Part shown: positions 1 to 12,536 of the stretch, one piece after another
Layout: every line of letters begins with the position of its first letter
Position numbering within the stretch: the first letter of the stretch is position 1
Origin: Candidatus Nomurabacteria bacterium
GTDB taxonomy: Bacteria; Patescibacteriota; Minisyncoccia; Phycocordibacterales; Phycocordibacteraceae
Direction: 5' to 3'
DNA length: 64,000 nt
Assembly: GCA_943353835.1 (NCBI GenBank)
Contig: CALRBA010000001.1
Coordinates: forward strand, 17,497-81,496
Made by a program: the position numbers and the translations under genes
The notes under the pieces: model-generated
Seen by the model: only the letters and a program-made list of their open reading frames with translations
The model's database searches: none
Told to the model about the DNA's origin: nothing

Positions 1-1
1 G

Positions 2-1609
2 ATACGTTTGGACGCGCCAATCGCCTTCACGCTCCCCGAGCGCGTGTGGAGGGAGAATGTGGATATACGAAAAATATTATCCATGTGTGACGGGTTCGGC
101 TTTAGAACGCTAAAAGAAAGAATCAAAATAGTTTTTAATAGCAAATCAGCCCCGACGTCAGAAGTCGGGGCTCCGACCGAAAGCGTCGGAGAAGAAAAAG
201 TAGATATTGTCCGACTCGCCGAGGCGAAGGCGATGCTCTGGCTCATCTCATCAGAATTCACGAATCCGTCGCTTGACGACATTCTCGCTTTCACTAAAGA
301 AAGGACTTTTGACGCCGCTTTCACGACTCTAGAGAAACAATTAAATGGACTCGGCAGAGTGAGAGACGTGTATGAGCAGATAGAGAAGCCACTTATACCG
401 GTTATAGAGAAAATGGGAGAGAGGGGAGTTCTCATAGACACAAAAATTCTATCAGGTCTCGCGAAGAAGTATCGTGCCGAGCTAAAGGATATTGAAAAGA
501 GTATTTATAAAAAGGTTGGACATGAATTTAATGTGAGCTCGCCAAAACAACTCGGCGAAGTGCTTTTTGACGAGCTGAAGATTGTTCCTGATAGAATGAA
601 GAAAACTGCTGGTGGACAACGCTCTACTCGCGAGAGTGAACTGGAGAAAATGCGTGATATGCATCCGATTATTGCCGATATTCTTGAATACCGAGAATTG
701 AAAAAATTACTCTCCACTTATATTGATAATCTACCCGTTATGCTTGATGTCGAGAATCGTCTCCATGCCGAATTTATTCAGACAGGCACTGTGACCGGCC
801 GTATGTCTTCACAGAATCCCAATCTTCAAAACATTCCACTGCGTAGCGAGCGCGGACGCGCGATACGCCACGCCTTCGTAGCATCAAATGGGTTCACACT
901 CGTCGGGCTGGACTATTCTCAAATAGAGCTTCGTCTCGCGGCAATACTCTCTGGCGACAAGAAGCTCTGTGACATATTTAAAAATGGGAGAGATGTACAC
1001 ACCGAGGTCGCGGCACAAGTCTTTGGGGTTGCTCCTGAAAAAGTTGATGCGGAGATGCGGCGCAGAGCAAAGATAATTAATTTTGGAATTCTGTATGGAA
1101 TGGGCGTCAATGCGCTCCGCGCACAGCTCGGAAGCACAACCGCCGAAGCCTACCAGTTCTTAGAAGAATATTTTTCTACGTTTAAAACACTTTCAGAATA
1201 TCTGGAGAGTACCAGAGGATTTGCAAGAAAAAATGGATATACAGAAACTTTGTTCGGGAGACGCAGACAATTCCCCGATATGAAATCGTCGCTCCCGTAT
1301 GTACGAGCACAAGCCGAGCGCATGGCGATTAATGCACCGATACAGGGCACGCAGGCGGACATCATCAAGCTCGCGATGGTGCGCGTGGACGAAATGCTGG
1401 CGAAAGAAAATGCCAATACAGATGCATATTTGCTACTGCAAGTACACGATGAATTGGTATATGAGATTTGCACCGAGCGTGTTGGCGAACTCGCGCCGAA
1501 AATACGCGCGATTATGGAGTCTGTTCTGGCGAACGATGACACGCGCGGCGTTCCCATCGTCGCGACGATGAAACAGGGTAACGATTGGGGCGCCATGGTT
1601 CCATTATGA
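2..1609 (+). CDS. polA: DNA polymerase I, C-terminal polymerase domain (5'-partial; gene continues upstream of the window)
   Basis: Family A polymerase motifs in the translation (RRxAKxxNFGxxYG, LLQVHDELVYE motif C). The frame is open from the window edge. The product carries the in-frame palindromic insert at nt 149-200. Confidence 0.85.
   Translation: MRLDAPIAFTLPERVWRENVDIRKILSMCDGFGFRTLKERIKIVFNSKSAPTSEVGAPTESVGEEKVDIVRLAEAKAMLWLISSEFTNPSLDDILAFTKERTFDAAFTTLEKQLNGLGRVRDVYEQIEKPLIPVIEKMGERGVLIDTKILSGLAKKYRAELKDIEKSIYKKVGHEFNVSSPKQLGEVLFDELKIVPDRMKKTAGGQRSTRESELEKMRDMHPIIADILEYRELKKLLSTYIDNLPVMLDVENRLHAEFIQTGTVTGRMSSQNPNLQNIPLRSERGRAIRHAFVASNGFTLVGLDYSQIELRLAAILSGDKKLCDIFKNGRDVHTEVAAQVFGVAPEKVDAEMRRRAKIINFGILYGMGVNALRAQLGSTTAEAYQFLEEYFSTFKTLSEYLESTRGFARKNGYTETLFGRRRQFPDMKSSLPYVRAQAERMAINAPIQGTQADIIKLAMVRVDEMLAKENANTDAYLLLQVHDELVYEICTERVGELAPKIRAIMESVLANDDTRGVPIVATMKQGNDWGAMVPL
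149..200 (+). repeat. Copy 1 of a ~52-nt double-hairpin palindromic element, in-frame within polA (translates SAPTSEVGAPTESVGEEK)
   Basis: ccccgacgtcagaagtcgggg + ctccgaccgaaagcgtcggag + gaagaaaaag; near-identical to 11487-11540. Confidence 0.7.
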
Positions 1610-2259
1610 TTTATCTCTTCCATGGTTCTGATGTGGAGAAAACGCGAACAAAAGCGTTTGAATGGGTCGCAAAAGCTAGAGCGAAAGAGCCGAACCTCGC
1701 CTATGTGCGCCTCGCGAGTGAGGAGCTCACGAGCGCGGCGCTAGAGGACGCTGCGCTTTCTGGCGGGTTGTTTGTAAAACGACTTTTGATACTTATTGAC
1801 GATCCATTTCAGGAGGAAATTTCCGGAGACCTTCTTGAAGAACATCTGTCTGCACTCGCAGACTCTGATAACGCCATTATTATTCTCACTCCGAAACTCA
1901 CGGCAGTAAAAGTAAAAAAGATTTCGGTGAAAGCGAAGATGGTGTACACCTATGACAAACCACCAGCGCTTGAGGACAAGCGAGGGTTTAATAGAAATTT
2001 AGTGGATGCACTCGGCGCACGCAATCGCGAGAAACTCTGGCTAGAGATTAATCGCGCACTTCGTGACGGCGACGCGACGGAGATGCTTCACGGCCTCCTT
2101 CACTGGAAAGCTCGTGATATGATGTCCAACGGAAGTCGTGTATGGACGCCACAAGAATCCCGCGCGCTCTCGCTCTCACTTATATCTCTCCTCCAATCCT
2201 CCCGCCGCGGCGGTATGAATTTGTCCCTTTCGTTAGAGAAGTTTGCACTCTCAATATAA
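1606..2259 (+). CDS. holA: DNA polymerase III delta subunit-like protein (short)
   Basis: The N-terminus (IYLFHGSD...LFVKRLLIL...IILTPKL) follows the HolA N-terminal domain pattern. The ATG overlaps the polA stop (ATGA). It is shorter than canonical delta subunits. Confidence 0.45.
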   Translation: MIYLFHGSDVEKTRTKAFEWVAKARAKEPNLAYVRLASEELTSAALEDAALSGGLFVKRLLILIDDPFQEEISGDLLEEHLSALADSDNAIIILTPKLTAVKVKKISVKAKMVYTYDKPPALEDKRGFNRNLVDALGARNREKLWLEINRALRDGDATEMLHGLLHWKARDMMSNGSRVWTPQESRALSLSLISLLQSSRRGGMNLSLSLEKFALSI

Positions 2260-2264
2260 ATTTG

Positions 2265-2337
2265 TGCGCCCGGTTGGAATCGGACCAACGACCTTGTCCT
2301 TAAAAGGGACCTGCTCTACCAACTGAGCTACGGGCGC
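2265..2337 (-). tRNA. tRNA-Lys (anticodon TTT)
   Basis: Hand-folded cloverleaf: acceptor stem GCGCCCG/CGGGCGC, anticodon loop CTTTTAA, T-arm GTTGG/CCAAC. Confidence 0.75.
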
Positions 2338-2464
2338 GAGCGAGGATGAGAAAATAGAGTTTACTCATATTTTCTCACTCCGAGCGAGCGCACAGTATGG
2401 TACCCCATACGGGCGCGAAGGGCTCTCCTCGTTTTTATAATCTACTCTTTTTTGCTCTTTTTTT

Positions 2465-3424
2465 CTAGTAGCTAAACGCATCTACCGTTTTACCGCTTGA
2501 ATCCAACAACTTCACGATTTCATATTTGGTGCGCCACAAGGGAGTTGTCCTTCCGAGATATATGCGCCACACATCGCCCTTGAAGTTGGAATCATTTTTG
2601 TGCGCCGTGACGCACCCGTTGTAGTTAAGATATTGAATCATGAAATTCTGGCACGCATTAGAAGCGGTGACGGGAGGAGATAATGCCACCTGACAACGTG
2701 ATATCTTATTCACATATTCAATGCACGAAGAATCGCGAATGTATCCGACACCGTAATAATTGGAAAGTTCATCAGACGGCACCGGACAGTTCTGCGGTAG
2801 AGGCGGATAAAATTGTTGGAATGTGCTGAAATAACCTATACATTTATTTTCCCTAAATGAGGCGCCGATAGGCGAACTTCCTGATACAAGAATCGCGCGC
2901 TTACCGGGAGTGATTACGATATCTTGAGACGCATTAACGATTCCAGATATCGGCACTTCCGTTCCTTTGGGTATCGTTATGGCACTTCCTGTTACATCGC
3001 TCGCTAGAGTCCAGCCTGATACGTTGACCGGAGCGCCGGCGTCCTGCGCCACATAGAGTTCTATGTATTCGTTCTTCGGGTCTGATGAACCGGCACCTGA
3101 AACGTAGCGATTCATTCTGACTATTCCACGGTATACAGAAGGCTGTCCGAATACACCACCGGTAATAATTGGAGTCGGCTGATTATTTGCATTGTTGCCA
3201 GTAACGTTGGAACCGTTTGATGAACCCGACAGAACGACGACTGAATCGCCGACGCTGAATGGCGCTCTTGGAAGTTGGAGGTATGTCCCTCCTCCGAGTA
3301 CTCCTGGCAGTGCGAGCCTCGGGCCGGTAAACGCGACAGGATGAAGAGGACCGCCTGTAGATATCCAGATAAGAAATATGAATACGAAAACACCTATAAA
3401 AAACCATGCATCGTGCATTTCCAT
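2465..3424 (-). CDS. Membrane-anchored extracytoplasmic protein with a lamin-tail-like domain and a Cys-rich C-terminal region
   Basis: N-terminal TM helix. LTD-like segment NEYIELYVAQDAGAPVNVSGWTL. Multiple Cys in the C-terminal third. Confidence 0.4.
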   Translation of the reverse strand: MEMHDAWFFIGVFVFIFLIWISTGGPLHPVAFTGPRLALPGVLGGGTYLQLPRAPFSVGDSVVVLSGSSNGSNVTGNNANNQPTPIITGGVFGQPSVYRGIVRMNRYVSGAGSSDPKNEYIELYVAQDAGAPVNVSGWTLASDVTGSAITIPKGTEVPISGIVNASQDIVITPGKRAILVSGSSPIGASFRENKCIGYFSTFQQFYPPLPQNCPVPSDELSNYYGVGYIRDSSCIEYVNKISRCQVALSPPVTASNACQNFMIQYLNYNGCVTAHKNDSNFKGDVWRIYLGRTTPLWRTKYEIVKLLDSSGKTVDAFSY

Positions 3425-3442
3425 AGAGATATAGTAACAAAC

Positions 3443-3988
3443 TTAGTGGCCGGACGAGAGAGCAGCTTTGAGTCTTGCCTCTTTTCCGACTGCACTGTCA
3501 GGGATAGCCTGCAGAGCCTTTCTCGCCTCGCGTTCTGTATAACCGAGCGCGACGAGTGTGTCAAACACTTCACCGTCTTCTCTCGAGTGTGAATGAGGAC
3601 CAATCTTGTCTGCGAGCTCCACGAGCATCTTCTCGGCGCTCTTCTTACCAAGCCCGACAACCTTGGTTAGATACGCCAGGTCGCGCGTTCCGATAGCTCC
3701 TTCGAGCGCCTCGCGAGGCGCTCGGCGCAATACTGAAAGAGCCGTCTTCGGGCCGACTCCAGACACAGACAGTATAAGCTCAAAGAAATCACGGTCGGCT
3801 GGATCGGAGAATCCATACAGTTCAAGACCATCCTGCTTCAGCGCCAGATGCGTCGCGAGGCTCGCCTCGCTCCCGACGGCGAGCATCTGAGGAGAACTCA
3901 TCCGCACCTCAATACCGAAGCCGGCGACCTCTATAACGGCGCTTACCAGCCCTATATTAAGCACCTTCCCGCGTATCTGCCGAATCAT
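3443..3988 (-). CDS. ruvA: Holliday junction branch-migration protein RuvA
   Basis: MIRQIRGKV...GFGIEV...LELILSVSGVGPKTAL...GYTEREARKAL is the canonical RuvA OB/HhH/domain III layout. The internal ATG at 3988 is chosen as the start. Confidence 0.85.
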   Translation of the reverse strand: MIRQIRGKVLNIGLVSAVIEVAGFGIEVRMSSPQMLAVGSEASLATHLALKQDGLELYGFSDPADRDFFELILSVSGVGPKTALSVLRRAPREALEGAIGTRDLAYLTKVVGLGKKSAEKMLVELADKIGPHSHSREDGEVFDTLVALGYTEREARKALQAIPDSAVGKEARLKAALSSGH

Positions 3989-4055
3989 GCTTACATAATA
4001 CATCCATTTGCATTTATTACTTAAACCTTGTAACTTACTGCTACAACCTAATTTT

Positions 4056-4325
4056 ATGGCTATCACCAGCTCGGCAAAGAAAGCGATTCGCTCATCGGCG
4101 AAGAAACATATCTTTAACATTCGCCGTAAAGAGGCTTTGACTAACGCGACTAAGTCGCTTCTAAAAGCTCTCTCCAAAAAAGATGTTTCAGGAGCCGAGA
4201 AACTTCTACCGACAGCCTACAAGGCGATAGACAAGGCGATGAAGCGCGGTGTTATTAAGAAAAACACGGCAGCCAACAAGAAGTCCCGCCTCGCTCTCGC
4301 CATCAAACGCGCGAAAGCGAAGTAG
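4056..4325 (+). CDS. rpsT: 30S ribosomal protein S20
   Basis: MAITSSAKKAIRSSAKKH...KAIDKAMKRGVIKKNTAANKKSRLA matches S20 throughout. It is divergent from ruvA. Confidence 0.85.
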   Translation: MAITSSAKKAIRSSAKKHIFNIRRKEALTNATKSLLKALSKKDVSGAEKLLPTAYKAIDKAMKRGVIKKNTAANKKSRLALAIKRAKAK

Positions 4326-4357
4326 CTTGCACCGAGCAAGTCTGCGAGTCGAAGTGT

Positions 4358-4429
4358 GCCCCCGGCCAGAATCGAACTGACATCGTCTCCTCCGCAAGGA
4401 GATGTCCTATCCATTGAACGACGGGGGCA
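4358..4429 (-). tRNA. tRNA, anticodon read as GCG (Arg)
   Basis: Acceptor GCCCCCG/CGGGGGC, D-stem GTTC/GGAC, anticodon stem TCTCC/GGAGA with loop TTGCGGA, T-arm GTCAG-TTCGATT-CTGGC. The GCG anticodon is unusual; confirm with tRNAscan-SE. Confidence 0.6.
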
Positions 4430-4443
4430 GTAGTGAATGTATA

Positions 4444-4917
4444 TCAGAACCCGAGCCACGCCGCCACCAGATCGTTGAAGGTATGGTGATGTTCATCCTC
4501 TTTCACGTAGTATAGGAAGTAATCGTACACTACGTCAACATCAACTCCGTTAAGAGGGATGATTAGATGCGGAGAGAACCAGCTCTCGGTCTTAATAGAG
4601 AGCATGGGAGATAATTCTCCTTTCACATCTTCCAGAACGGAGAAAGATATCATTCGTTCAAACGGATGCATATCGTCTCCTATCATTATGCCTTGTTCCA
4701 CGAGACGGAAGCGATGTACGGGAGGATGTTTAGATGCGTGAAGAGCGAATGCAGTTGTCGCAATAATAATAAGAACGGCGAGAAGATAATTGCCGAAGAG
4801 CACGGACGCGACCGTACCGGACACCGCGATGATACCAAGCGCCCAGTACCAGTCGGTACTCTTCGGATTATGGTCGTACTCTCTCCCTTCCCATTCTAAA
4901 ATAGAAGTGTTGAACAT
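4444..4917 (-). CDS. Hypothetical membrane protein
   Basis: Two predicted TM helices near the N-terminus; no recognisable motif. Confidence 0.4.
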   Translation of the reverse strand: MFNTSILEWEGREYDHNPKSTDWYWALGIIAVSGTVASVLFGNYLLAVLIIIATTAFALHASKHPPVHRFRLVEQGIMIGDDMHPFERMISFSVLEDVKGELSPMLSIKTESWFSPHLIIPLNGVDVDVVYDYFLYYVKEDEHHHTFNDLVAAWLGF

Positions 4918-4936
4918 AGGAAAATGATAACACGGG

Positions 4937-5023
4937 CGGAAGGGGTGAGATTCGAACTCACGGTCCCCGTAAGGAGACTCCGGTTTTCAAGACCGGTGCA
5001 TTAGACCGCTCTGCCACCCTTCC
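4937..5023 (-). tRNA. tRNA-Ser (anticodon TGA)
   Basis: Acceptor GGAAGGG/CCCTTCC, anticodon stem CCGGT/ACCGG with loop CTTGAAA, long variable arm, T-arm GTGAG-TTCGAAT-CTCAC. Confidence 0.75.
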
Positions 5024-5027
5024 ATAA

Positions 5028-5303
5028 CTACTGCGCCGGTGATGAGACGTTCACAGGCGTTTCAGAAACGATGTTTCCGACGTTTTTCGGGCGGAACCAG
5101 ATAAGATACACGATTTCCAGAATGCCGAACGTGTTTATGACCAGAAGCGCTATGAACCAATTCTTCTGGCCGGCACGTGCGGCGGCCCAGAGAGAGTATC
5201 CTTTCAAAACTATTGTCCAAAGTACTAAGACTAGAATAATCGGGACAAAAATACTCATAAATCCCGGCGTGAACGGAGAATAGAATGGAGTGTATGCTTG
5301 CAT
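5028..5303 (-). CDS. Small integral membrane protein (2 TM)
   Basis: Hydrophobic helices only. Confidence 0.35.
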   Translation of the reverse strand: MQAYTPFYSPFTPGFMSIFVPIILVLVLWTIVLKGYSLWAAARAGQKNWFIALLVINTFGILEIVYLIWFRPKNVGNIVSETPVNVSSPAQ

Positions 5304-5333
5304 ATGTGCGAATCATACCACACACTTCTTATT

Positions 5334-5747
5334 ATGCGATATCTAGGCATTGATTATGGGAGTAAAAAAGTCGGCCTCGCCTTATCTGACGAAGCGGGAG
5401 TTATGGGATTCCCGCACGGAATAATAGCGAACACTCCTCGTCTCGCCGATGAGCTCTATGCGCTTATCGCTAAAGAAAATATCGGGGCGGTCGTTATTGG
5501 GGAATCACGCACTCTTAGTGGAGAAGAGAATGCGATAGCCAAGTATGCGAAGGCGCTCGGCTCTCTGATTACTGAACACACGGGAACGCCAGTTTTCTAC
5601 GAATCAGAGGTGTATACGAGTGCGGAGGCGCGCAGGGCTCCAGAAAAAGAAATAAAATCACGCGCCGCGAAGCGGCGCGTGGATGTTGATGCTTCTGCTG
5701 CCGCACTCATCCTTACCAGCTACCTCTCACACGCCAATCATGGATAA
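5334..5747 (+). CDS. ruvX: Putative pre-16S rRNA nuclease / Holliday junction resolvase YqgF (RuvX)
   Basis: MRYLGIDYGSKKVGLALSD signature N-terminus; ~138 aa. Confidence 0.8.
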   Translation: MRYLGIDYGSKKVGLALSDEAGVMGFPHGIIANTPRLADELYALIAKENIGAVVIGESRTLSGEENAIAKYAKALGSLITEHTGTPVFYESEVYTSAEARRAPEKEIKSRAAKRRVDVDASAAALILTSYLSHANHG

Positions 5748-6081
5748 ATCGCGCATAACAATTGACGAGTTTAGTAAAATAGAAGTGAAGGTCGGCACAG
5801 TACGCCTTGCCGAACGCGTACCAGAGACCGACAAACTCTTTCGGCTTCTGGTCGATTTTAGTGAAGAAAGTGGCCCTCGTCAGATTGTTTCCGGTATCGC
5901 AATGTACGTATCTGAACCGGAATCATTGGTGGGTCGACAATTTGCATTTGTGACGAATCTTGAACCACGCACAATACGCGGACTTGAAAGCAATGGAATG
6001 CTTTTTGCTGTTGGGTCCGGAGACACCTTCGCGTTTCTTACTCCCGATAGAGACGTCCCGTCTGGTACTAGTGCACACTAG
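5740..6081 (+). CDS. Stand-alone tRNA-binding protein (CsaA/Trbp111-like; homologous to the MetRS C-terminal domain)
   Basis: IDEFSKIEVKVGTVRLAERVPETDKLFRLLVDFSEE...GIAMYV has the OB-fold Myf/EMAP pattern. The start overlaps the ruvX stop. Confidence 0.7.
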   Translation: MDKSRITIDEFSKIEVKVGTVRLAERVPETDKLFRLLVDFSEESGPRQIVSGIAMYVSEPESLVGRQFAFVTNLEPRTIRGLESNGMLFAVGSGDTFAFLTPDRDVPSGTSAH

Positions 6082-6119
6082 CGCGCGCGAACGCTCCGCG
6101 CCCGCGCTATAATTGATCT

Positions 6120-7217
6120 ATGACCTTCGTTCTTCGCGAACACATTCGTGCGGCCTTCGCTCCACCGAAATATCTTGCTCCCACTTTCGCTGGTATTGAC
6201 CTCTCAACAAGCGGAGTCAAGGCTGTGCATCTTATAGAAGGTACCCACGGTCTTACTCTCGCCGGATATTCTGAGATGCGTCTGCCTTCTGGAGCATTTG
6301 CCGATGGTGAAGTAGTTGACCATTCGGCGGTTATGGAGACACTTTCAAATGCTGCTAAATCTGCAGGCATTTCATCCGCTAATGTTGCTCTACCGGAATC
6401 AAAGTCCTATTTATTTGAGACAGTGGTTCCAGGAAAAAAGAAAGACGAATGGCGTATAGCGGTTGAACAGCATCTGGACGAGTTCGTTCCATTGCCTCCG
6501 CCTGACACAGTGTTTGATGTTATAAAAGTAGGTCAAGAAGAGAATGGTGGGGCTCTCGTTACAGGTGTCGGCTTCGCTCGTAGAATCGTTGATGAAACAC
6601 TTTCGGTTTTTGACGATGCCGGAATTAGGGTTCAATCTTTAGAAAGTGAAACATTCGCGTCGTCACGGGCTCTTCTTCCTTATGGAGATGAATCCACTTC
6701 TCTAATTATTGACGTCGGTAGGGCTACAACGAAGATATCAATAGTCTCAAAATGTGTTCCGCGATTTGCTACGACGATTGGTTTCGGCGGGCATTCTCTT
6801 ACTCTCGCCGTGCAGAAACATTTCGGTGTGACCGAAGCCGAGGCGCGTAAGATAAAGTACGAGCGCGGTATTGTACTCGGACCCGGAAACGAAGATTATC
6901 TGTCAGCGATGCTTTCAACAGTGTCCGCTATTCGTGACGAGATTTCCACAAGGCTTGAATATTGGCAGGAGAAGGCTAGAACCTCCAAAATGCATGTACC
7001 AGTGACGCACGCTATTCTTGTCGGTGGGAATGCATCTGTGCGTGGATTTACGGAATATCTGGAGGGGGTTCTTAAAATACCGGTTGTTTCTGGAGACGTG
7101 TTCACTAATCTCGCTTCACGCGATGATTGGATTCCAACGCTTGATTACACCGAGTCTCTCGCATATGCGACCGCAATCGGTCTCGCTTTACGCGATGATA
7201 TACAGCCTTATGAATAA
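6120..7217 (+). CDS. pilM: Type IV pilus assembly ATPase-like protein PilM
   Basis: GIDLSTSGVKAVHL N-terminus, actin-like fold, ~365 aa. Confidence 0.8.
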   Translation: MTFVLREHIRAAFAPPKYLAPTFAGIDLSTSGVKAVHLIEGTHGLTLAGYSEMRLPSGAFADGEVVDHSAVMETLSNAAKSAGISSANVALPESKSYLFETVVPGKKKDEWRIAVEQHLDEFVPLPPPDTVFDVIKVGQEENGGALVTGVGFARRIVDETLSVFDDAGIRVQSLESETFASSRALLPYGDESTSLIIDVGRATTKISIVSKCVPRFATTIGFGGHSLTLAVQKHFGVTEAEARKIKYERGIVLGPGNEDYLSAMLSTVSAIRDEISTRLEYWQEKARTSKMHVPVTHAILVGGNASVRGFTEYLEGVLKIPVVSGDVFTNLASRDDWIPTLDYTESLAYATAIGLALRDDIQPYE

Positions 7218-7764
7218 CGAACCTACAAATCTTCTTCCGCCGGAAAGACAAAGAACTCTATCCATAGATTATATTCTTCGCGTAGGAGTCATAATTGCCG
7301 TACTCGCGACCGCCTTGACTCTTTCATCATCGGTTCTATTAATTCCCACATACGTTTTTTTAAGCGGGAATGTAAGTGCAAAGAAAGTAAATCTCGCCAG
7401 CATAGAATCCTCTCTTTCTTCTGCAGATGAGATAGCTCTTTCAAATCGCCTGACTGCGCTTTCAGAAAATGCGGCGTCTCTCTCGGCTCTTTCAAACGTT
7501 CAGTCGGTTAGCGCAACGGTTCGTGAAATACTCTCCGTATCGCGCCCGGGGATTACTATCTCGGGAATTTCGTACACACCACATACGGAAAATAAGCCTG
7601 GAACGGTGATTATTTCCGGCTCGTCCGCAACGCGCGACTCACTGCGCGGTTATCAACTCGCATTGCAGGAGGTTCAATTTATACGTTCCGTCGTTTTACC
7701 GGTGTCTGCATATGCAAAGGACAGCGATATTGCATTCACAATTACAGTAACACTCGCGCCATGA
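7210..7764 (+). CDS. pilN: Type IV pilus assembly protein PilN-like
   Basis: Short cytoplasmic N-terminus (LLPPERQ), one TM helix and a coiled region. The start overlaps the pilM stop. Confidence 0.6.
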   Translation: MNNEPTNLLPPERQRTLSIDYILRVGVIIAVLATALTLSSSVLLIPTYVFLSGNVSAKKVNLASIESSLSSADEIALSNRLTALSENAASLSALSNVQSVSATVREILSVSRPGITISGISYTPHTENKPGTVIISGSSATRDSLRGYQLALQEVQFIRSVVLPVSAYAKDSDIAFTITVTLAP

Positions 7765-8327
7765 AATCCTCCGTCATTCATATGAGTATATGGGTTTCTA
7801 TATGTGTCGCGACTATCGTCGGACATGGATTTTGGTATGCCGTTATTTCAGAGAAGAGCGCTGAAGTGGCTAGTCTGCAGAATCAAATTGATACTAAGAC
7901 GGAAACGGCAGGTAGAGTCGCTGCCGCGCGGACGGCATTGAGTGAAATTGAGGGTAATGAATCGGAGATTCGAAATTATTTCGTACCGGAAACAGAGGTC
8001 GTATCGTTCATAGACGATATTGAAGGTCGCGCACTTACTCAGAAGACAACTATGAAGGTTCTTTCCGTGTCCGTGAATAATTCTTCAAAACAAACGTCTC
8101 TTGTCCTATCTCTCGTTGTTGGAGGAACATTTGACGCAGTTATGCGTACGGTCGGAGCAATTGAATTCGCTCCATACGATTTATCAATATCAAAACTTTC
8201 CATCAGGAATGAAGAAAAGAATGTATGGAAAGCACATTTTGAAATTGTCGTCGGTTCGATACCTGCAAGTACGGAACCAAGTACAAAGGCCGTTGAACAG
8301 AAAACGGTTTCTTTTATCTTTCCATGA
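7761..8327 (+). CDS. pilO: Type IV pilus assembly protein PilO-like
   Basis: N-terminal TM helix, coiled-coil and C-terminal beta region; operon position after pilMN. Confidence 0.5.
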   Translation: MKSSVIHMSIWVSICVATIVGHGFWYAVISEKSAEVASLQNQIDTKTETAGRVAAARTALSEIEGNESEIRNYFVPETEVVSFIDDIEGRALTQKTTMKVLSVSVNNSSKQTSLVLSLVVGGTFDAVMRTVGAIEFAPYDLSISKLSIRNEEKNVWKAHFEIVVGSIPASTEPSTKAVEQKTVSFIFP

Positions 8328-8632
8328 ATACCAATAACTCAATTCGTGCATTCTTGAACCGCATACATTCCGCGATGCATATAGATCCGGTACGCGACTG
8401 GCTGATACTACTCACTCTCTCTATACTCGCGTTTATCAGCATAGTCGTATGGAATGTGTTGGCATTTGATACCGTCGCGCGCGGAGGAGTCATCGGCACG
8501 GCCGTAACAAGTACAGAACCCGTATTTAACAGCTCATCTCTTGACGTGATTCATTCGGTATTCTCAAAGCGCGTTACCGAAGAGTCTAAGTATGTGACCG
8601 GTGTATACCGTTACGCCGACCCTTCGCAATAA
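8324..8632 (+). CDS. Hypothetical membrane-anchored protein, translationally coupled to pilO (ATGA overlap)
   Basis: Single TM helix; fourth gene of the pilMNO cluster. Confidence 0.35.
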   Translation: MNTNNSIRAFLNRIHSAMHIDPVRDWLILLTLSILAFISIVVWNVLAFDTVARGGVIGTAVTSTEPVFNSSSLDVIHSVFSKRVTEESKYVTGVYRYADPSQ

Positions 8633-8664
8633 GCAATATATAAGATAATGTAAAAGAGTGTTTC

Positions 8665-8737
8665 GCCCCCATAGCTTAATGGATAAAGTAGCGGACTTCT
8701 AAGCCGTTGATGTTGGTTCGATTCCAGCTGGGGGCAC
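8665..8737 (+). tRNA. tRNA-Arg (anticodon TCT)
   Basis: Acceptor GCCCCCA/TGGGGGC, anticodon loop CTTCTAA, T-arm GTTGG-TTCGATT-CCAGC. Confidence 0.7.
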
Positions 8738-8785
8738 ACTTCGACTCGCAGACTCGCTCAGTGTAAACTGAAAAGCGAGTGGGGA

Positions 8786-8866
8786 GGGCACGTGGCGGAA
8801 CGGTATACGCGTACGACTCAGAATCGTATGGGGCAACCCTTGAGAGTTCAAATCTCTCCGTGCCCA
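8786..8866 (+). tRNA. tRNA-Leu (anticodon CAG)
   Basis: Acceptor GGGCACG/CGTGCCC, anticodon stem TACGA/TCGTA with loop CTCAGAA, long variable arm. Confidence 0.75.
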
Positions 8867-9199
8867 CTAGTGCGTTAGTGTTAAAAATAATCCTTTCAGG
8901 ATTTCTCGCAGCTCTTCTCCAGAAATACGTCCAATATTTTTCGTGAGTCGCTTTTTGGACAAAGCGCGAATTTGAAATGGTATCGCTTCCGAATTTTTTG
9001 TTAGTCCGTTTGTTTTATTTGCAAGCAACATAACGCAGGTTGGATACGATTTTACTTTAGAAGTGACGGGGACAACGACGACAATTGGTAGCGTGTCATT
9101 AAGAGTATCGCCGGAAACAATCACAACTGGTCTTTTACCAGACTGCTCGGACCCTTTAGTAGGATTAAGATTAGCAAACCATATTTCGCCTTGGCGCAT
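8867..9199 (-). CDS. mazF: Type II toxin, MazF/PemK family mRNA interferase
   Basis: MRQGEIWFANLNPTKGSEQSGKRPVVIVS is the hallmark PemK/MazF N-terminus; 110 aa. Confidence 0.8.
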   Translation of the reverse strand: MRQGEIWFANLNPTKGSEQSGKRPVVIVSGDTLNDTLPIVVVVPVTSKVKSYPTCVMLLANKTNGLTKNSEAIPFQIRALSKKRLTKNIGRISGEELREILKGLFLTLTH

Positions 9200-9204
9200 C
9201 TTTA

Positions 9205-9447
9205 TTAGCGACTGACGAGCCGTTGATAATCATCCATACCCCATTCAACCATCTCAAGTATATCCGCATCGCGCGCCGCTCGCGCGAACCCTTCCTTAAG
9301 GATATTTTTCATAGTGTCACGCTGGTATCTTTTTAAAGCTTCTTCTAGGACTGAGCGGCGCGTTCGTTTCTGGGTTCGTGCGCTTCTGTCAACCCAAGCG
9401 ATAAGCTCTGGTGAAATGGTGCTGGTAAATGAAGCGGTGGTTTTCAT
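9205..9447 (-). CDS. mazE: Antitoxin (ribbon-helix-helix-like), partner of mazF
   Basis: 80-aa basic protein immediately upstream of mazF with a 5-nt gap; RHH-like SPELIAWVDRSA segment. Confidence 0.6.
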   Translation of the reverse strand: MKTTASFTSTISPELIAWVDRSARTQKRTRRSVLEEALKRYQRDTMKNILKEGFARAARDADILEMVEWGMDDYQRLVSR

Positions 9448-9516
9448 ATGTCTGATTATACGTATAATAGCATCATAGGGACATAGTGCAAGAGTTTCTG
9501 CTACTATGACAGCAAT

Positions 9517-9589
9517 GCACCCTTAGCTCAGTTGGTAGAGCAACGCATTTACACTGCGAAGGTCGTAGGTTCGAGTCCTACAGGGTGCA
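9517..9589 (+). tRNA. tRNA-Val (anticodon TAC)
   Basis: Acceptor GCACCCT/AGGGTGC, anticodon loop TTTACAC, T-arm GTAGG-TTCGAGT-CCTAC. Confidence 0.75.
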
Positions 9590-9628
9590 CTTGAAACCGA
9601 AAAGCATGTTATACAGGTTGATACATAT

Positions 9629-10300
9629 ATGAACGTTGAATGCGTTGGGATTATTCTGGACGGTAATCGCCGATGGGCGAAGGAAAACGGCGTATCAAAA
9701 CTGGAAGGGCATCGTGCGGGAATGGAGACATTGAAGAAGACCGTGCGATTTGTGCGTGATAATAGTATCAAACATCTCATAGTCTATGCGTTTTCAACGG
9801 AGAACTGGAATCGCGATACAGATGAAGTGTCATATCTTATGGACCTATTCCGCGAAGCGATACAGAAGGAGATGAGTGAATTGGGAAAAGAAAACGTTCG
9901 CGTACGCTTCATTGGTCAGCGTGAACGTTTCTCAGAAGATTTGCAAAAATCAATGAATATTACTGAAAAAGAAACAGTAAAGAACGAAGCGATAACATTG
10001 TGGATATGTCTCTCGTATGGCGGGAGAGCAGAGATAGTCGCGGCGGCGAATGCCGCCGCCGAGAAAAGTGTTTTGATAACTGAAGAATTATTGGCGAAAA
10101 ATTTGTGGACTTCGGAAATGCCAGACCCTGACATCATAATCCGCACCGGCGGAGAAAAAAGACTTTCCAATTTTCTACTCTGGCAATCTGCCTACAGCGA
10201 ACTCTTTTTTACCGATACGCTTTGTCCTGACTTCAACAAAGAAGAGTTTAATTCCATTCTCGCAGAATTCGCGTCTCGCGAGCGCCGTAACGGTAAATAA
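9629..10300 (+). CDS. uppS: Undecaprenyl diphosphate synthase
   Basis: GIILDGNRRWAKENG and RFIGQRE motifs of cis-prenyltransferases. Confidence 0.85.
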   Translation: MNVECVGIILDGNRRWAKENGVSKLEGHRAGMETLKKTVRFVRDNSIKHLIVYAFSTENWNRDTDEVSYLMDLFREAIQKEMSELGKENVRVRFIGQRERFSEDLQKSMNITEKETVKNEAITLWICLSYGGRAEIVAAANAAAEKSVLITEELLAKNLWTSEMPDPDIIIRTGGEKRLSNFLLWQSAYSELFFTDTLCPDFNKEEFNSILAEFASRERRNGK

Positions 10301-10302
10301 TA

Positions 10303-11040
10303 ATGGAACTCCAGATACTTTACGAAGATGCAGATGTGGTAGCAGTAGCGAAGCCAGCCGGACTGATTACGCATTCTGACGGGAGGACGAAAGAAGAAAC
10401 AGCAGAGGATTGGTTCAAAGAGAAATATGAGGGAGGGCTTGCCTCGCCGAAGCCATGCGGAGGCGGGTATGTGCATAGATTGGACCGTGATACCTCCGGC
10501 GTTCTAGTCTTCGCCAAGAACGCGTCGGCGTATGAATTCTTGCGCAAAGCATTTCACAATAGAGACATACAGAAAACTTATATAGCAATTGTCTATGGCG
10601 TTCCAAAAGCGAAAAAAGGCGTTATAGATTTTGACATTGGTCGCTCGCGCCAAGACTTCAGGCTCCGGAGCGCCCAACCGAAGGCGAAGGGCCGTCTTCG
10701 CGACGCGCTTACGCGTTATGAAGTAATAGGAGAAGTGGAAGGTTACGCGCTTATGAGGTTGAATCCGGAGACTGGCAGAACGCATCAGATTCGCGTGCAT
10801 CTGAAGGCCATTCATCACCCAATTGTTTGTGATTCTCTGTATGCTCCCGGTTTGTCCAAGAGCAAAGCGATTGGAAACAAACCGCAGTCCCTTGGGACGC
10901 CGAATCTAGGTCTCTCACGCCTCGCATTACATGCGAGTACGCTCAACATTCCACTCCCGAGTGGAGGTAGGACCACAATCGAGGCGCCAATACCAGAAGA
11001 TCTGTCGGTAGCACTCGCACATTTCCCTACAGCGTGTTAG
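10303..11040 (+). CDS. RluA-family pseudouridine synthase
   Basis: HRLDRDTSGVLVFAKN catalytic-Asp motif. Confidence 0.8.
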   Translation: MELQILYEDADVVAVAKPAGLITHSDGRTKEETAEDWFKEKYEGGLASPKPCGGGYVHRLDRDTSGVLVFAKNASAYEFLRKAFHNRDIQKTYIAIVYGVPKAKKGVIDFDIGRSRQDFRLRSAQPKAKGRLRDALTRYEVIGEVEGYALMRLNPETGRTHQIRVHLKAIHHPIVCDSLYAPGLSKSKAIGNKPQSLGTPNLGLSRLALHASTLNIPLPSGGRTTIEAPIPEDLSVALAHFPTAC

Positions 11041-11055
11041 AGTGTCGCGACACAT

Positions 11056-11559
11056 ATGAGAGTCATAACTACTGTCAATATAGAAGGGCGCGCGAAGCTC
11101 GGGATACGCCCTGGCGATACTGTGCGCGTCATTCAGAATATTGTTGAACTTAAGAAAGATCGCGGTACCGATAAGAAGGAAAAAACGATTAAGAATGCCC
11201 GTAAGCAGGCATTTGAAGGTCTCGTTCTTGCGGTCAAACACGGCGCCGAAGCAGGGGCGACTTTTACCGTCCGCGCGACTCTCTCTGGAGTCGGAGTGGA
11301 GAAGACATTTCCGCTCTATTCCCCGGTTATTGATTCAATTGAAATAGTAAAGCGCTCCAAAGTCCGTCGCGCGAAGCTCTACTTCATCCGTGAGAAGGCG
11401 GCCAAGGCGGTCCGCCGTCAGCTACGTAACGCACGCATGATGCATTTGAAGAGCGATGAAGCTGTCGCTGTTCCCGAGGAAATTGCAGCTCCGACGTCTG
11501 AAGTCGGAGCCCCGACCGAAAGCGTCGGGGAAGAGAAAAAAGAAGAAGCTGTAGTATAG
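11056..11559 (+). CDS. rplS: 50S ribosomal protein L19 with a ~50-aa C-terminal extension
   Basis: RPGDTVRV...AFEGLVLAVKHG...TFTVR...GVEKTFPLYSPVIDSIEIVKRSKVRRAKLYFIRE matches L19. The C-terminal tail contains the palindromic repeat at 11487-11540. Confidence 0.8.
   Translation: MRVITTVNIEGRAKLGIRPGDTVRVIQNIVELKKDRGTDKKEKTIKNARKQAFEGLVLAVKHGAEAGATFTVRATLSGVGVEKTFPLYSPVIDSIEIVKRSKVRRAKLYFIREKAAKAVRRQLRNARMMHLKSDEAVAVPEEIAAPTSEVGAPTESVGEEKKEEAVV
11487..11540 (+). repeat. Copy 2 of the ~52-nt double-hairpin palindromic element, in-frame in the rplS 3' extension (translates AAPTSEVGAPTESVGEEKK)
   Basis: ctccgacgtctgaagtcggag + ccccgaccgaaagcgtcgggg + aagagaaaaaag; the stems carry compensatory swaps relative to copy 1. 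Confidence 0.7.
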
Positions 11560-11580
11560 TGTTCCAACCTGCCCGGGTGG

Positions 11581-11662
11581 CGTAATTGGTAAACGCGTAA
11601 GATTGAGGTTCTTATGTCGCAAGACGTGGAGGTTCAAGTCCTCTCCCGGGCACAAAATATCA
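11581..11662 (+). tRNA. tRNA-Leu (anticodon GAG)
   Basis: Acceptor GCCCGGG/CCCGGGC, anticodon stem TAAGA/TCTTA with loop TTGAGGT, long variable arm. Confidence 0.75.
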
Positions 11663-11814
11663 AGAAAATACGGACTAACAAGGGGTAATGGGGACAGCCA
11701 CCATTGTTTCGTAAATAGTGTGGTATAATTTAATACATGCTACGGAGTGAAAGGTACCCTTTTTAATTTTCATGAAAAGTTTTGAAATTGATAAAAGAAG
11801 TCTTGAAATAGTAT

Positions 11815-11852
11815 AAAAAAACTCCCTTGACTGCACATGCAGTCAAGGGAGA
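11815..11852 (-). terminator. Intrinsic terminator for the minus-strand CDF gene
   Basis: Near-perfect palindrome cccttgactgca..tgcagtcaaggg followed on the minus strand by a T-run. Confidence 0.5.
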
Positions 11853-11900
11853 AGGCCTCGCTCCGAGAGGGGAGGAGAGCGAGAGAAGGGACTAAAACAA

Positions 11901-12536
11901 TCAGTCATCCAGTATTTCAAGGAACAAGACAACGGCGATGCTAATCATAGCAGGAGCTGCGATTAACGAAAGCACGGCATCTGCCCGTACCCACCCGAAG
12001 AGCCATCCGGTCAATCCCGAGATGACAACGATTCCGGAAAGTCCCATATCGCATAAGACATGCAGATTGGCTACTTTGTGAGAATGGCTTTGTTCGTGGC
12101 GAGGGATTTTTGAGAGGACTTTGTAGGCCCAAAAGTTTCCCAACCCGCCGATAAAGCCCACAACCATAAGCCACTCGTTTTTAATGGAGACGGGATTATC
12201 CAACCGTTCAAGCGCTTCGGAAAAGACAGATATCGCTCCGAGGATAAGGATGCCGATACCCGCATACGCGAACCACTTTTTTGCGGTACGGCCATTACTC
12301 CCGCTTGCTCTAATCGCGTAAGTGGCAACCAAGGTGGCTCCGAAGAGTATCAAGAAATCCGAAATACTATGAATAGTGTCGGACTTCAAGGTCGTGCTCG
12401 GCAGAATTTCCAAAACAAGAAAGAGCTGAGCAAAGAATATCGTAAGCGTGATCATGGCGGCTTGCCAAGTGAGCAACGCTTCTTTTTCAAGAACCCCCGG
12501 ATGATGTCCGAGACGGATTATTTTGTAGAGTGGCAT
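11901..12536 (-). CDS. Cation diffusion facilitator family transporter (membrane domain only, no cytoplasmic C-terminal domain)
   Basis: TM2 motif SDTIHSISD and TM5 motif HVLCDMGLS (HxxxD pairs); six TM helices. Confidence 0.65.
   Translation of the reverse strand: MPLYKIIRLGHHPGVLEKEALLTWQAAMITLTIFFAQLFLVLEILPSTTLKSDTIHSISDFLILFGATLVATYAIRASGSNGRTAKKWFAYAGIGILILGAISVFSEALERLDNPVSIKNEWLMVVGFIGGLGNFWAYKVLSKIPRHEQSHSHKVANLHVLCDMGLSGIVVISGLTGWLFGWVRADAVLSLIAAPAMISIAVVLFLEILDD

What the first reader, a model, noticed from the sequence alone, without database searches (positions are those of the whole stretch)
149..200. A ~52-nt double-hairpin palindromic element sits in-frame inside two unrelated genes (polA and rplS)
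Nucleotides 149-200 (inside polA) and 11487-11540 (the C-terminal tail of L19) are near-identical. Each copy consists of two adjacent stem-loops (ccccgac-gtcagaa-gtcgggg and ctccgac-cgaaagc-gtcggag) followed by gaagaaaaag. Both copies are in-frame and translate to ~APTSEVGAPTESVGEEK. Between the copies the two stems carry reciprocal compensatory changes (CC..GG versus CT..AG), which argues that the hairpin structure itself is under selection. An in-frame insertion of a short palindromic repeat into conserved housekeeping genes is the hallmark of Rickettsia palindromic elements (RPE). Such elements have, to my knowledge, not been characterised in CPR-type genomes. In polA the insert lies in the linker before the polymerase domain. 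In rplS it creates or extends a C-terminal tail that canonical L19 lacks.
Basis: seen in the sequence. Interest (0 to 1): 0.7.

Follow-up and report, generated by a model that had tools for sequence, protein, structure and literature searches.

The report
In-frame tandem-hairpin DNA repeat of Patescibacteria
Two housekeeping genes of this tiny-genome (CPR) bacterium carry the same 42-base double-hairpin DNA repeat, which occurs inside many unrelated genes across the whole group, is translated as a floppy linker, and is conserved at the DNA level far more tightly than the genes around it.

Summary
Window 150-191 (polA) and 11489-11530 (rplS) are two copies of a 42-nt module made of two adjacent 7-bp-stem hairpins. 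Both are in frame (APTSEVGAPTESVG) and carry reciprocal compensatory stem changes. No other copy lies in about 74 kb of this genome.

The module is not a protein motif. Scans found it in about 30 Patescibacteria genome loci and 71 of 120 metagenome loci, inside more than 25 unrelated genes (topA, gyrB, dnaG, infB, nusG, rpsE, rplL, def and others). It sits in linkers, tails and loops and is read in at least four frames. The CCGAC/GTCGG stem core never changes, and the outer stem pairs covary.

Orthologous polA and rplS copies found by protein homology are 41-42/42 nt identical. Elsewhere in the same genes only 41-55% of same-residue codons match. Each gene keeps its own subtype. Close relatives differ in presence or absence, and one unrelated gene holds an exact copy.

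Best reading: an old, low-copy palindromic repeat that works like Rickettsia RPEs and intragenic REPs, spread by copy-and-paste, now held by selection on the hairpins themselves. Its dispersal enzyme and function are unknown. I found no description of it. Verdict: new variant of a known kind.

The parts
150..170 (+). polA copy, hairpin 1: CCCCGAC-GTCAGAA-GTCGGGG (encodes PTSEVG)
   Evidence: 7-bp stem (8 bp counting G149/C171).
171..191 (+). polA copy, hairpin 2: CTCCGAC-CGAAAGC-GTCGGAG (encodes PTESVG). The loop can close into C-GAAA-G with a bulged C.
147..204 (+). Full extent of similarity between the two window copies. It includes the family-wide conserved flanks: 5' CAG, and 3' GAAGA followed by an A-rich run.
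   Evidence: D2, 58 nt, 86%; over 87 flank pairs the 5' flank is C 70%, A 62%, G/A 91%, and the 3' flank has G 76% at +3 and A 59% at +4.
11489..11509 (+). rplS copy, hairpin 1: CTCCGAC-GTCTGAA-GTCGGAG
11510..11530 (+). rplS copy, hairpin 2: CCCCGAC-CGAAAGC-GTCGGGG
11486..11543 (+). Full extent of the rplS copy with shared flanks
   Evidence: The same copy, with its 5' AATTGCA and 3' AAGAGA flanks, is present in the unrelated gene of locus L162.
2..1609 (+). Host gene 1: polA, 3' part (full protein P0121, 798 aa). The element is residues 313-326, between the 5'-3' exonuclease domain (ends at 278) and the polymerase domain (starts at 412).
   Evidence: AlphaFold model: residues 310-326 have pLDDT below 50, and 308-331 are coil.
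11056..11559 (+). Host gene 2: rplS (L19, 167 aa). The Pfam domain covers residues 17-120 and the element is residues 145-158, inside a lineage-wide acidic C-terminal tail.

Best explanation
Both sites are copies of a dispersed, GC-rich, tandem-hairpin palindromic DNA repeat that is specific to Patescibacteria (CPR).

The unit is nnCCGAC-loop-GTCGGn'n' twice, head to tail: 42 nt, or about 49 nt with its conserved CAR and NWGA flanks. Hairpin 2 has a C-NNAA-GC loop (GNRA-like in most copies). Hairpin 1 has a variable apical part.

The unit is defined at the nucleic-acid level. It was copied non-homologously into many genes (inferred). It survived where extra residues are tolerated: interdomain linkers, terminal extensions and surface loops. 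It is translated in whatever frame it landed in, most often the frame giving APTSEVGAPTESVG.

Most copies seen today are old. They are inherited at fixed orthologous sites with gene-specific subtypes (shown). Their stems and loop 2 are held by purifying selection on the hairpin rather than on the peptide (shown as a pattern; the cause is inferred).

I favour a role or constraint as a structured element in the transcript, because about 85% of copies lie in sense orientation. A single-stranded-DNA hairpin recognised by a protein is not excluded. The enzyme that dispersed the repeat is unknown.
For: 1. Dispersed family. A genome scan that left all third-codon positions and both loops free returned 49 loci. 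About 30 are Patescibacteria loci carrying the same module, with up to 5 copies on different contigs of one genome.

2. Not a peptide motif.
- With confident host ORFs the frames are F1 36, F0 8, R1 4, F2 3, R2 3, R0 1.
- The variable loop-2 positions change the residue (E to G, A, K, R or I), while the neighbouring synonymous positions never change.

3. Hairpin constraint. Across 43 distinct copies 99.7% of cells are paired. The outer two pairs of both stems covary (34 double-sided changes; 0 of 500 shuffles reach this). Every slid control drops to at most 49% paired. The inner 5 bp are invariant. The apical stem of hairpin 1 also covaries (CCC/GGG, TCC/GGA, CAC/GTG).

4. Unbiased orthologue test. 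Five polA and three rplS orthologues were chosen by protein homology. They carry 41-42/42 identical nucleotides, against 41-55% same-codon identity elsewhere in the gene (binomial P about 1e-4 to 4e-6 per pair). Three topA loci from the synonym-free scan show the same pattern.

5. Gene-specific subtypes. The outer stem pairs of hairpin 1|hairpin 2 are CC|CT in polA, CT|CC with loop GTCTGAA in rplS, and always CG in hairpin 2 for S5 and NusG.

6. Gain, loss and copying.
- L178 (element present) and L179 (element absent) are each other's closest relatives (85% nt, 90% aa), yet one has the 42-mer where the other has an unrelated 30 nt.
- The element is patchy on a polA tree, with at least 11 changes.
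- In assembly GCA_030688065.1, rplS has the element and polA does not.
- L162, an unrelated HTH gene, has an exact copy of the rplS subtype including its flanks.

7. Tolerant positions. Pfam places copies in linkers, tails and loops of S5, NusG, L7/L12, S16, IF2, TopA, GyrB, DnaG, GatB, PDF, TsaD, the CCA-adding enzyme, RNase R, TrmD and others. The polA insert is a low-confidence coil.

8. The frame that contains TGA is used only by copies whose loop lacks the stop.
Against: - No transposase, target-site duplication or terminal inverted repeat was found.
- Copy number is low: 2 copies in about 74 kb here.
- Gene-specific subtypes mean most copies descend from single old insertions, so ongoing mobility is not demonstrated.
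- Patchiness in polA could come from homologous allele exchange rather than transposition. The 3' flank of L178 (EEEID) resembles the P0151 clade rather than its sister.
- The sense bias may reflect peptide tolerance rather than RNA function.
- Host-ORF calls used a longest-ORF heuristic, and at least one call is wrong (L118).
- The metagenome set was selected for an exact hairpin 2.
- The NJ tree is unsupported by resampling.
Confidence: 0.65

Rival explanations
1. A purely selfish, neutrally evolving RPE-like insert. It transposed into tolerant sites and has been decaying since, with no constraint on the hairpins beyond their recent origin.
For: Decayed and half copies exist in L19 and polA orthologues: APAESVV, APIESVG, SAPMSENNIFGENVAEE. 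Placement is in tolerant linkers. Close relatives differ in presence or absence.
Against: Orthologous copies in species whose synonymous sites are near saturation (third-position identity 0.41-0.55) are 41-42/42 identical. The few changes are mostly non-synonymous loop changes. Subtypes are stable per gene across species, so the identity is not explained by recent re-insertion from a common master.
Confidence: 0.15
2. The identity of orthologous copies reflects recent spread of short gene-specific alleles by homologous recombination (natural transformation) among co-occurring Kaiserbacteria, not purifying selection.
For: The element is patchy on the polA tree. L178 shares its 3' flank (EEEID) with the distant P0151 clade rather than with its sister L179.
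Against: The 5' flanks of element-bearing polA genes differ right up to the junction: AAT AGC AAA TCA, CGG AGC GAA TCG, TTG AAG GAG CCG and others. A homologous conversion tract should carry flanking markers on both sides. The same module is also conserved across classes and in different genes.
Confidence: 0.1
3. A double-stranded-DNA protein-binding site embedded in genes (parS- or operator-like tandem palindromes 21 bp apart), conserved because a dimeric protein reads it.
For: The CCGAC/GTCGG half-sites are invariant, the two units are spaced 21 bp apart, copy number is low, and sequence is conserved at the nucleotide level inside genes. The window lies about 8-22 kb from dnaA.
Against: The outer stem positions and the apical stem covary to keep complementarity rather than a fixed sequence. 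The spacer of hairpin 1 varies from 5 to 25 nt. There is no enrichment near dnaA/dnaN: apart from the polA locus used as the query source, only 1 fetched locus matched. Orientation is biased with respect to the host gene.
Confidence: 0.05
4. A conserved protein linker module (APTSEVG repeats) selected at the peptide level, or a one-off duplication between polA and rplS.
For: The peptide is identical in both genes. The F1 frame dominates (36 of 55).
Against: The same DNA is read in other frames inside long, Pfam-supported ORFs (SRRPSGSGLRPKASGK in RNase R, LRRQESGLRPEASEK in a VirD4-like protein) and, in a PKD/HHH-domain protein, on the opposite strand (PTLSVGAPTSDVG). Synonymous sites are invariant while residues at loop positions vary. 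Dozens of other genes and genomes carry it.
Confidence: 0.03

Closest known systems
Rickettsia palindromic elements (RPE-1 to RPE-10; reviewed in PMC10969869, and treated as CGTC REPs for RPE-4/6 in PMC3733652)
   Same: A palindromic repeat inserted in frame into unrelated housekeeping genes of a reduced-genome, host-dependent bacterium. It is read through as extra residues at positions compatible with the fold. No associated transposase is known.
   Different: It is 42 nt rather than about 100-150 nt. It is two head-to-tail hairpins rather than one long palindrome. It is spread across a whole superphylum with near-identical sequence. Only a few copies occur per genome. Orthologous copies are more conserved than their host genes. 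Sequence similarity to RPEs was not tested.
Intragenic REP elements and REP dimers (GTAG- and CGTC-tagged superfamilies; Di Nocera et al. 2013, PMC3733652)
   Same: Short (20-40 bp) GC-rich hairpins, sometimes inside ORFs, including DNA polymerase I and other replication and repair genes. Dimers encode 20-30 residues. CGTC REPs have no dedicated transposase.
   Different: There is no unpaired GTAG or CGTC tag and no CCA tail. Stems are 7 bp with a CCGAC core. Dimers are head-to-tail, an arrangement that paper calls negligible for CGTC REPs. Copies are mostly intragenic rather than extragenic, and number tens at most rather than hundreds per genome.
MITEs and IS200/IS605-derived miniature elements (palindrome-associated transposable elements); comparison from my own knowledge
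   Same: Short, non-coding and hairpin-forming. Two similar hairpins could serve as left-end and right-end binding sites for a single-strand-DNA transposase. There is no target-site duplication.
   Different: No terminal inverted repeats and no linked tnpA/tnpB were seen. There is no orientation bias relative to GC skew. A conserved 5' CAR flank is the only hint of a target preference.
PARCELs (palindromic amphipathic repeat coding elements of Mollicutes); comparison from my own knowledge, not checked here
   Same: A palindromic repeat whose two strands encode similar peptides, so it is tolerated in ORFs in either orientation. Here GCNCCGAC/GTCGGNGC reads A-P-T ... V-G-A on both strands.
   Different: PARCELs are longer (about 100 nt or more), encode amphipathic segments, and occur mainly in surface or hypothetical proteins.

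Membership tests
Rickettsia palindromic elements (RPE) | Palindromic repeat able to fold into a stable hairpin | tested here: met
Rickettsia palindromic elements (RPE) | In-frame insertion into unrelated protein-coding genes, with the ORF continuing through the element | tested here: met
   and Pfam: more than 25 different host genes.
Rickettsia palindromic elements (RPE) | Insert lies where it does not disturb the fold (surface, loop or linker) | tested here: met
   polA model: residues 310-326 have pLDDT below 50 and are coil. The L19 copy is in the tail beyond the Pfam domain. Other hosts carry it between or at the edges of Pfam domains. Structure was modelled for polA only.
Rickettsia palindromic elements (RPE) | Length about 100-150 bp and sequence homology to one of the RPE families; genus Rickettsia | tested here: not met
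   The unit is 42 nt (45-61 nt with longer hairpin-1 loops). The host is Candidatus Kaiserbacteria / Patescibacteria. Direct sequence comparison with RPE consensus sequences was not done.
REP (GTAG/CGTC-tagged repetitive extragenic palindromes) | Single 20-40 bp imperfect palindrome with an unpaired GTAG or CGTC tag at one end | tested here: not met
   Each hairpin is 21 nt and fully paired at both ends. The flanks are CAR and NWGA. The feature is taken from PMC3733652.
REP (GTAG/CGTC-tagged repetitive extragenic palindromes) | High copy number, predominantly extragenic, downstream of ORFs | tested here: not met
   There are 2 copies in about 74 kb of this genome and at most 5 strict copies per representative genome. 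All 88 tandem modules lie within an open frame, 55 of them in a confidently called host ORF; among all hairpin-2 hits only a few lie outside any ORF of 60 aa or more.
REP (GTAG/CGTC-tagged repetitive extragenic palindromes) | Association with a RAYT (REP-associated tyrosine transposase) | not tested
   Whole genomes were not available, and no systematic search for Y1/HUH transposases was made.
MITE | Terminal inverted repeats and target-site duplication | tested here: not met
   The distribution of flanking direct repeats equals that of shuffled partners. The two hairpins are direct, not inverted, repeats of each other.
IS200/IS605-type single-strand-DNA elements | Insertion next to a fixed short target sequence, and orientation tied to the replication direction | tested here: inconclusive
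   The 5' flank CAR is conserved (C 70%, A 62%, G/A 91%). GC skew on the element-forward strand is positive in 20 loci and negative in 19. Skew measured over 5-14-kb loci is a weak proxy for replication direction.

The most novel reading that the evidence does not exclude
The module is not merely a tolerated selfish insert. It is a superphylum-wide functional nucleic-acid signal embedded inside coding sequences: a tandem pair of hairpins with an invariant CCGAC/GTCGG core and a GNRA-like loop. It would be read in the mRNA (or in transiently single-stranded DNA) by a Patescibacteria-specific factor and kept under stronger selection than the residues it encodes. One possibility is a device for pausing, stabilisation or recognition at domain boundaries of core information-processing genes.
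Probability: 0.3. Interest if true: 0.8.

Novelty: new variant of a known kind. Interest (0 to 1): 0.6.

Why it matters
Patescibacteria (CPR) make up a large share of bacterial diversity. Their genomes are tiny and reported to be poor in repeats, and their proteins are known for unexplained insertions and extensions.

This result shows that some of those extra segments in ribosomal proteins, polymerases, topoisomerases and translation factors come from one DNA-level hairpin repeat. That gives a concrete source for lineage-specific linkers.

It also provides a sharp 42-nt marker for CPR sequence in metagenomes.

Finally, it poses a testable question: why is a translated hairpin pair kept nucleotide-perfect across species whose synonymous sites are saturated? 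Answering it could reveal a new RNA- or DNA-binding activity in organisms that cannot yet be studied genetically.

Tried and rejected
- **Known RNA family.** Rfam at E up to 1 over window 1-12500 gave only tRNAs and chance hits, and nothing at the element.
- **Phage origin.** There were 0 matches in viral contigs.
- **parS or origin-proximal centromere idea.** The window has no parS consensus beyond chance. Apart from the polA locus used as the query source, only 1 fetched locus lies next to dnaA/dnaN. This is so even though the window itself starts about 8 kb from dnaA.
- **Replication-strand orientation, as for IS200/IS605.** GC skew was positive in 20 loci and negative in 19.
- **Target-site duplication or extension of the palindrome into the flanks.** Neither exceeds shuffled controls.
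- **TIGR-Tas stem-loop arrays.** Considered after a literature hit. Rejected because there are no box C/D motifs, spacers or arrays.
- **Concerted evolution between the polA and rplS copies.** Rejected for the canonical form because each gene keeps its own subtype across species. A nested 51-nt variant shared by polA and rplS of related lineages remains unexplained.
- **Literature.** Searches for the sequence, the peptide, and palindromic or in-frame repeats in CPR found nothing.
- **High-GC hits.** The high-GC hits of the genome scan (Actinomycetota, Myxococcota and others) are unrelated tandem repeats.
Full report
**Observation**

The two stretches exist as described. Window 149-195 (inside the polA frame) and 11488-11534 (inside rplS) match one degenerate 47-nt consensus without mismatch. 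That gives two hits against none in 100 shuffles. The ungapped similarity runs over 58 nt at 86% identity.

Each copy consists of two adjacent 21-nt hairpins with 7-bp stems:
- polA: CCCCGAC-GTCAGAA-GTCGGGG followed by CTCCGAC-CGAAAGC-GTCGGAG.
- rplS: CTCCGAC-GTCTGAA-GTCGGAG followed by CCCCGAC-CGAAAGC-GTCGGGG.

Four of the five core differences are therefore two reciprocal, fully compensated stem changes.

Both copies are in frame and read APTSEVGAPTESVGEEK. Both fold far better than shuffles, as RNA (z = -4.2 to -5.8) and as DNA.

A covariance model built later finds no further copy in the window or in the 10 kb upstream of polA.

The organism is a Candidatus Kaiserbacteria (Patescibacteria) metagenome-assembled genome.

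**Anatomy of the family**

Two collection scans were run:
- A scan of one genome per species left every third-codon position and both loops free (GCNCCNAC-N7-GTNGGNGCNCCNAC-N7-GTNGG). It returned 49 loci. About 30 are Patescibacteria loci (Paceibacteria, Kaiser-, Yanofsky- and Zambryskibacteria, Minisyncoccia, Saccharibacteria) carrying the same module. The rest are unrelated high-GC tandem repeats. Several genomes have 2-5 copies on different contigs.
Of those loci, 71 carry the tandem module, at locus GC 0.31-0.60.

Features of the module:
- The two outer stem pairs take the forms CC/GG, CT/AG, CG/CG, TC/GA and AG/CT.
- Loop 2 is C-NN-AAGC, and most NNAA variants fit GNRA.
- Hairpin 1 has a bulged G and a variable apex (5-25 nt). 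Its own 3-bp apical stem covaries (CCC/GGG, TCC/GGA, CAC/GTG).
- On 43 distinct 42-mers, 99.7% of pair cells are paired. There are 34 double-sided changes, no shuffle reaches the observed covariation, and every slid control collapses.
- The flanks are also non-random: 5' CAR and 3' NWGA. There is no target-site duplication.

**A DNA/RNA unit, not a peptide**

With confidently called host ORFs the module is read in these frames:

| Frame | Copies | Peptide |
|---|---|---|
| F1 | 36 | APTSEVGAPTESVG |
| F0 | 8 | e.g. SRRPSGSGLRPKASGK in RNase R |
| F2 | 3 | not listed |
| R1 | 4 | PTLSVGAPTSDVG (antisense) |
| R2 | 3 | only copies whose loop lacks the TGA; one call, L118, is a false ORF call |
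| R0 | 1 | not listed |

GCNCCGAC/GTCGGNGC is palindromic in codon register, so both strands encode A-P-T...V-G-A.

Positions that vary in loop 2 change the residue (E to G, A, K, R or I). The adjacent synonymous positions never vary.

**Hosts**

Pfam places copies in the following:
- ribosomal proteins S5 (N-terminal extension), S16 and L19 (C-terminal tails), and the L7/L12 hinge;
- the NusG N-terminus and IF2;
- TopA, GyrB, DnaG and PolA;
- GatB, TsaD, TrmD, the CCA-adding enzyme, RNase R and peptide deformylase;
- glutamate racemase, RseP, a VirD4-like coupling protein (two copies in two frames), surface proteins and others.

In PolA the element is residues 313-326, between the 5'-3' exonuclease domain (ends at 278) and the polymerase domain (starts at 412). 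An AlphaFold model built on 55 homologues gives pLDDT below 50 for residues 310-326 and coil for 308-331.

In L19 the element lies in an acidic tail that all Kaiserbacteria L19 possess, with or without it. So it decorates the tail rather than creating it.

**Evolutionary behaviour**

*Conservation.* Five polA orthologues were picked by protein homology, so they are unbiased at the DNA level. They carry the identical 42-mer, with one non-synonymous G-to-A change. Elsewhere in the gene, only 41-53% of same-residue codons match (P about 1e-4 to 4e-6 per pair). Three rplS orthologues behave the same way, as do topA loci from the synonym-free scan.

*Gene-specific subtypes.* Written as the outer stem pairs of hairpin 1|hairpin 2, polA is always CC|CT, rplS is CT|CC with loop GTCTGAA, and the S5 and NusG copies have CG in hairpin 2. 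Orthologous copies therefore descend from single old insertions and are not homogenised within a genome.

*Turnover.*
- About 20 of 120 polA and about 25 of 120 L19 relatives have the peptide. Some have decayed or half copies.
- The element is patchy on a rough polA tree, with at least 11 changes.
- L178 and L179 are each other's closest relatives (85% nt, 90% aa). One has the 42-mer where the other has an unrelated 30 nt.
- In one assembly, rplS has the element and polA does not.

*Copying between genes.*
- L162, an unrelated HTH gene, holds an exact copy of the rplS subtype with about 7 nt of flank on each side.
- A nested 51-nt variant occurs in both polA and rplS of related lineages.

*DNA-level palindrome activity.* Near-identical loci differ by an exact flip of the hairpin-1 loop.

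**Mechanism: shown and inferred**

Shown:
- It is a discrete nucleic-acid unit with exact boundaries.
- It is dispersed among genes and genomes and read through in several frames.
- It sits at tolerant positions.
- It keeps its hairpin complementarity.
- It is conserved well beyond the surrounding synonymous rate.

Inferred:
- It originally spread by a non-homologous copy-and-paste process, as REP, RPE and MITE elements are thought to. No enzyme was identified.
- It is retained by selection on the folded strand.

The 85% sense orientation favours a transcript-level constraint. Peptide tolerance could also produce that bias. Single-stranded-DNA recognition is not excluded.

**Alternatives tested and not supported**
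- parS or an origin-proximal site.
- Replication-strand bias.
- A known Rfam family.
- Phage origin.
- TIGR arrays.

**Comparison and novelty**

The closest known systems are the Rickettsia palindromic elements and the intragenic REP dimers catalogued by Di Nocera et al. (PMC3733652). That paper also reports such dimers in DNA polymerase I and other replication and repair genes. RPEs are reviewed in PMC10969869.

The present family works like them but fails their membership criteria on size, tags, copy number, dimer arrangement and taxon.

It differs in three notable ways:
- its head-to-tail hairpin architecture;
- its near-identical sequence across a superphylum;
- its stronger-than-synonymous conservation at orthologous sites.

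Full-text searches for the sequence, the peptide, or palindromic or in-frame repeats in CPR found nothing.

I rate it a new variant of a known kind, of moderate-to-high interest. The open question is what keeps the hairpins intact.

**Limits**
- Host ORFs were called by a longest-ORF heuristic.
- The metagenome set is conditioned on an exact hairpin 2.
- The polA tree is a simple NJ tree without support values.
- No whole-genome copy counts were possible.
- Covariance-model E-values are rough.

Noticed in passing
L065 7048-7090 and L145 versus L076 8624-8666: Loci with identical 30-nt flanks, in an ADP-forming acetyl-CoA synthetase gene, differ only by an exact inversion of the 8-nt loop of hairpin 1 (CCTTTGGC versus GCCAAAGG). 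This is a flip between the stem arms, so the palindrome is recombinationally active as DNA.
   Followed up: partly
L055, L061, L062, L066, L067, L071, L075, L078, L082, L089, L093, L122, L140, L146, L154, L159, L168: A different, longer palindromic repeat from GC-0.61 peat and soil contigs, not CPR-like. Its form is ...GATCCCTCACCGCCAT-CCCCGACCGAAAGCGTCGGGG-CTGGGTTCGGGATGAC..., with the identical 21-nt hairpin 2 at its tip. Whether this is common descent or convergence on a stable GAAA-capped hairpin is unknown.
   Followed up: no
L175 10932-10982, L176 (polA) and L172 9136-9186 (rplS): A 51-nt nested variant (outer CCGAC...GTCGG enclosing a full inner hairpin with loop GCAGCCC; peptide PTSE[A/V]PTQPVG[A/T]ESVG) occurs in both polA and rplS of related Kaiserbacteria. 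It folds as one long hairpin. A derived form shared by two genes hints at exchange between copies, but I could not show that both come from one genome.
   Followed up: partly
L185 (rplS) and L177 (polA), both from assembly GCA_030688065.1: In the same assembly, rplS carries the canonical element while polA has the element-free linker (EIGETFELIPEE). The two insertions are therefore independent characters.
   Followed up: yes
L180 883-3520, which is upstream of window position 1: dnaA and dnaN lie about 8-9 kb upstream of the window start, next to yidC, so the window begins close to the likely replication origin. No general link between the element and the origin was found.
   Followed up: partly
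L010 4559-4600 and 4635-4676; L043 3170-3270: The C-terminal tail of a VirD4/TraG-like coupling protein carries two copies 76 nt apart, read in two different frames (LRRQESGLRPEASEK and APTSEVGVPTGSVGK).
   Followed up: partly
polA linker of relatives (P0133, P0136, P0139 and many others): Most element-free Kaiserbacteria PolA share a conserved linker motif, G-E-T-x-E-L-I-P-E-E. It aligns without gaps to the second half of the element peptide (SEIGETFELIPEEKVD versus SEVGAPTESVGEEKVD). Whether this is an old decayed copy or the ancestral target is unresolved.
   Followed up: partly
window 2265-11652: Seven tRNA genes lie in the first 12 kb. One (11571-11652) starts 12 nt after the rplS stop codon. 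A PemK-type toxin gene with a small upstream partner sits at about 8867-9447 on the minus strand.
   Followed up: no
window 25059-25105 and 31738-31784: A 47-nt direct repeat at 72% identity encodes a KMSKS-type motif (QKMSKSKGN), presumably in two class I aminoacyl-tRNA synthetase genes. It is ordinary paralogue similarity.
   Followed up: no
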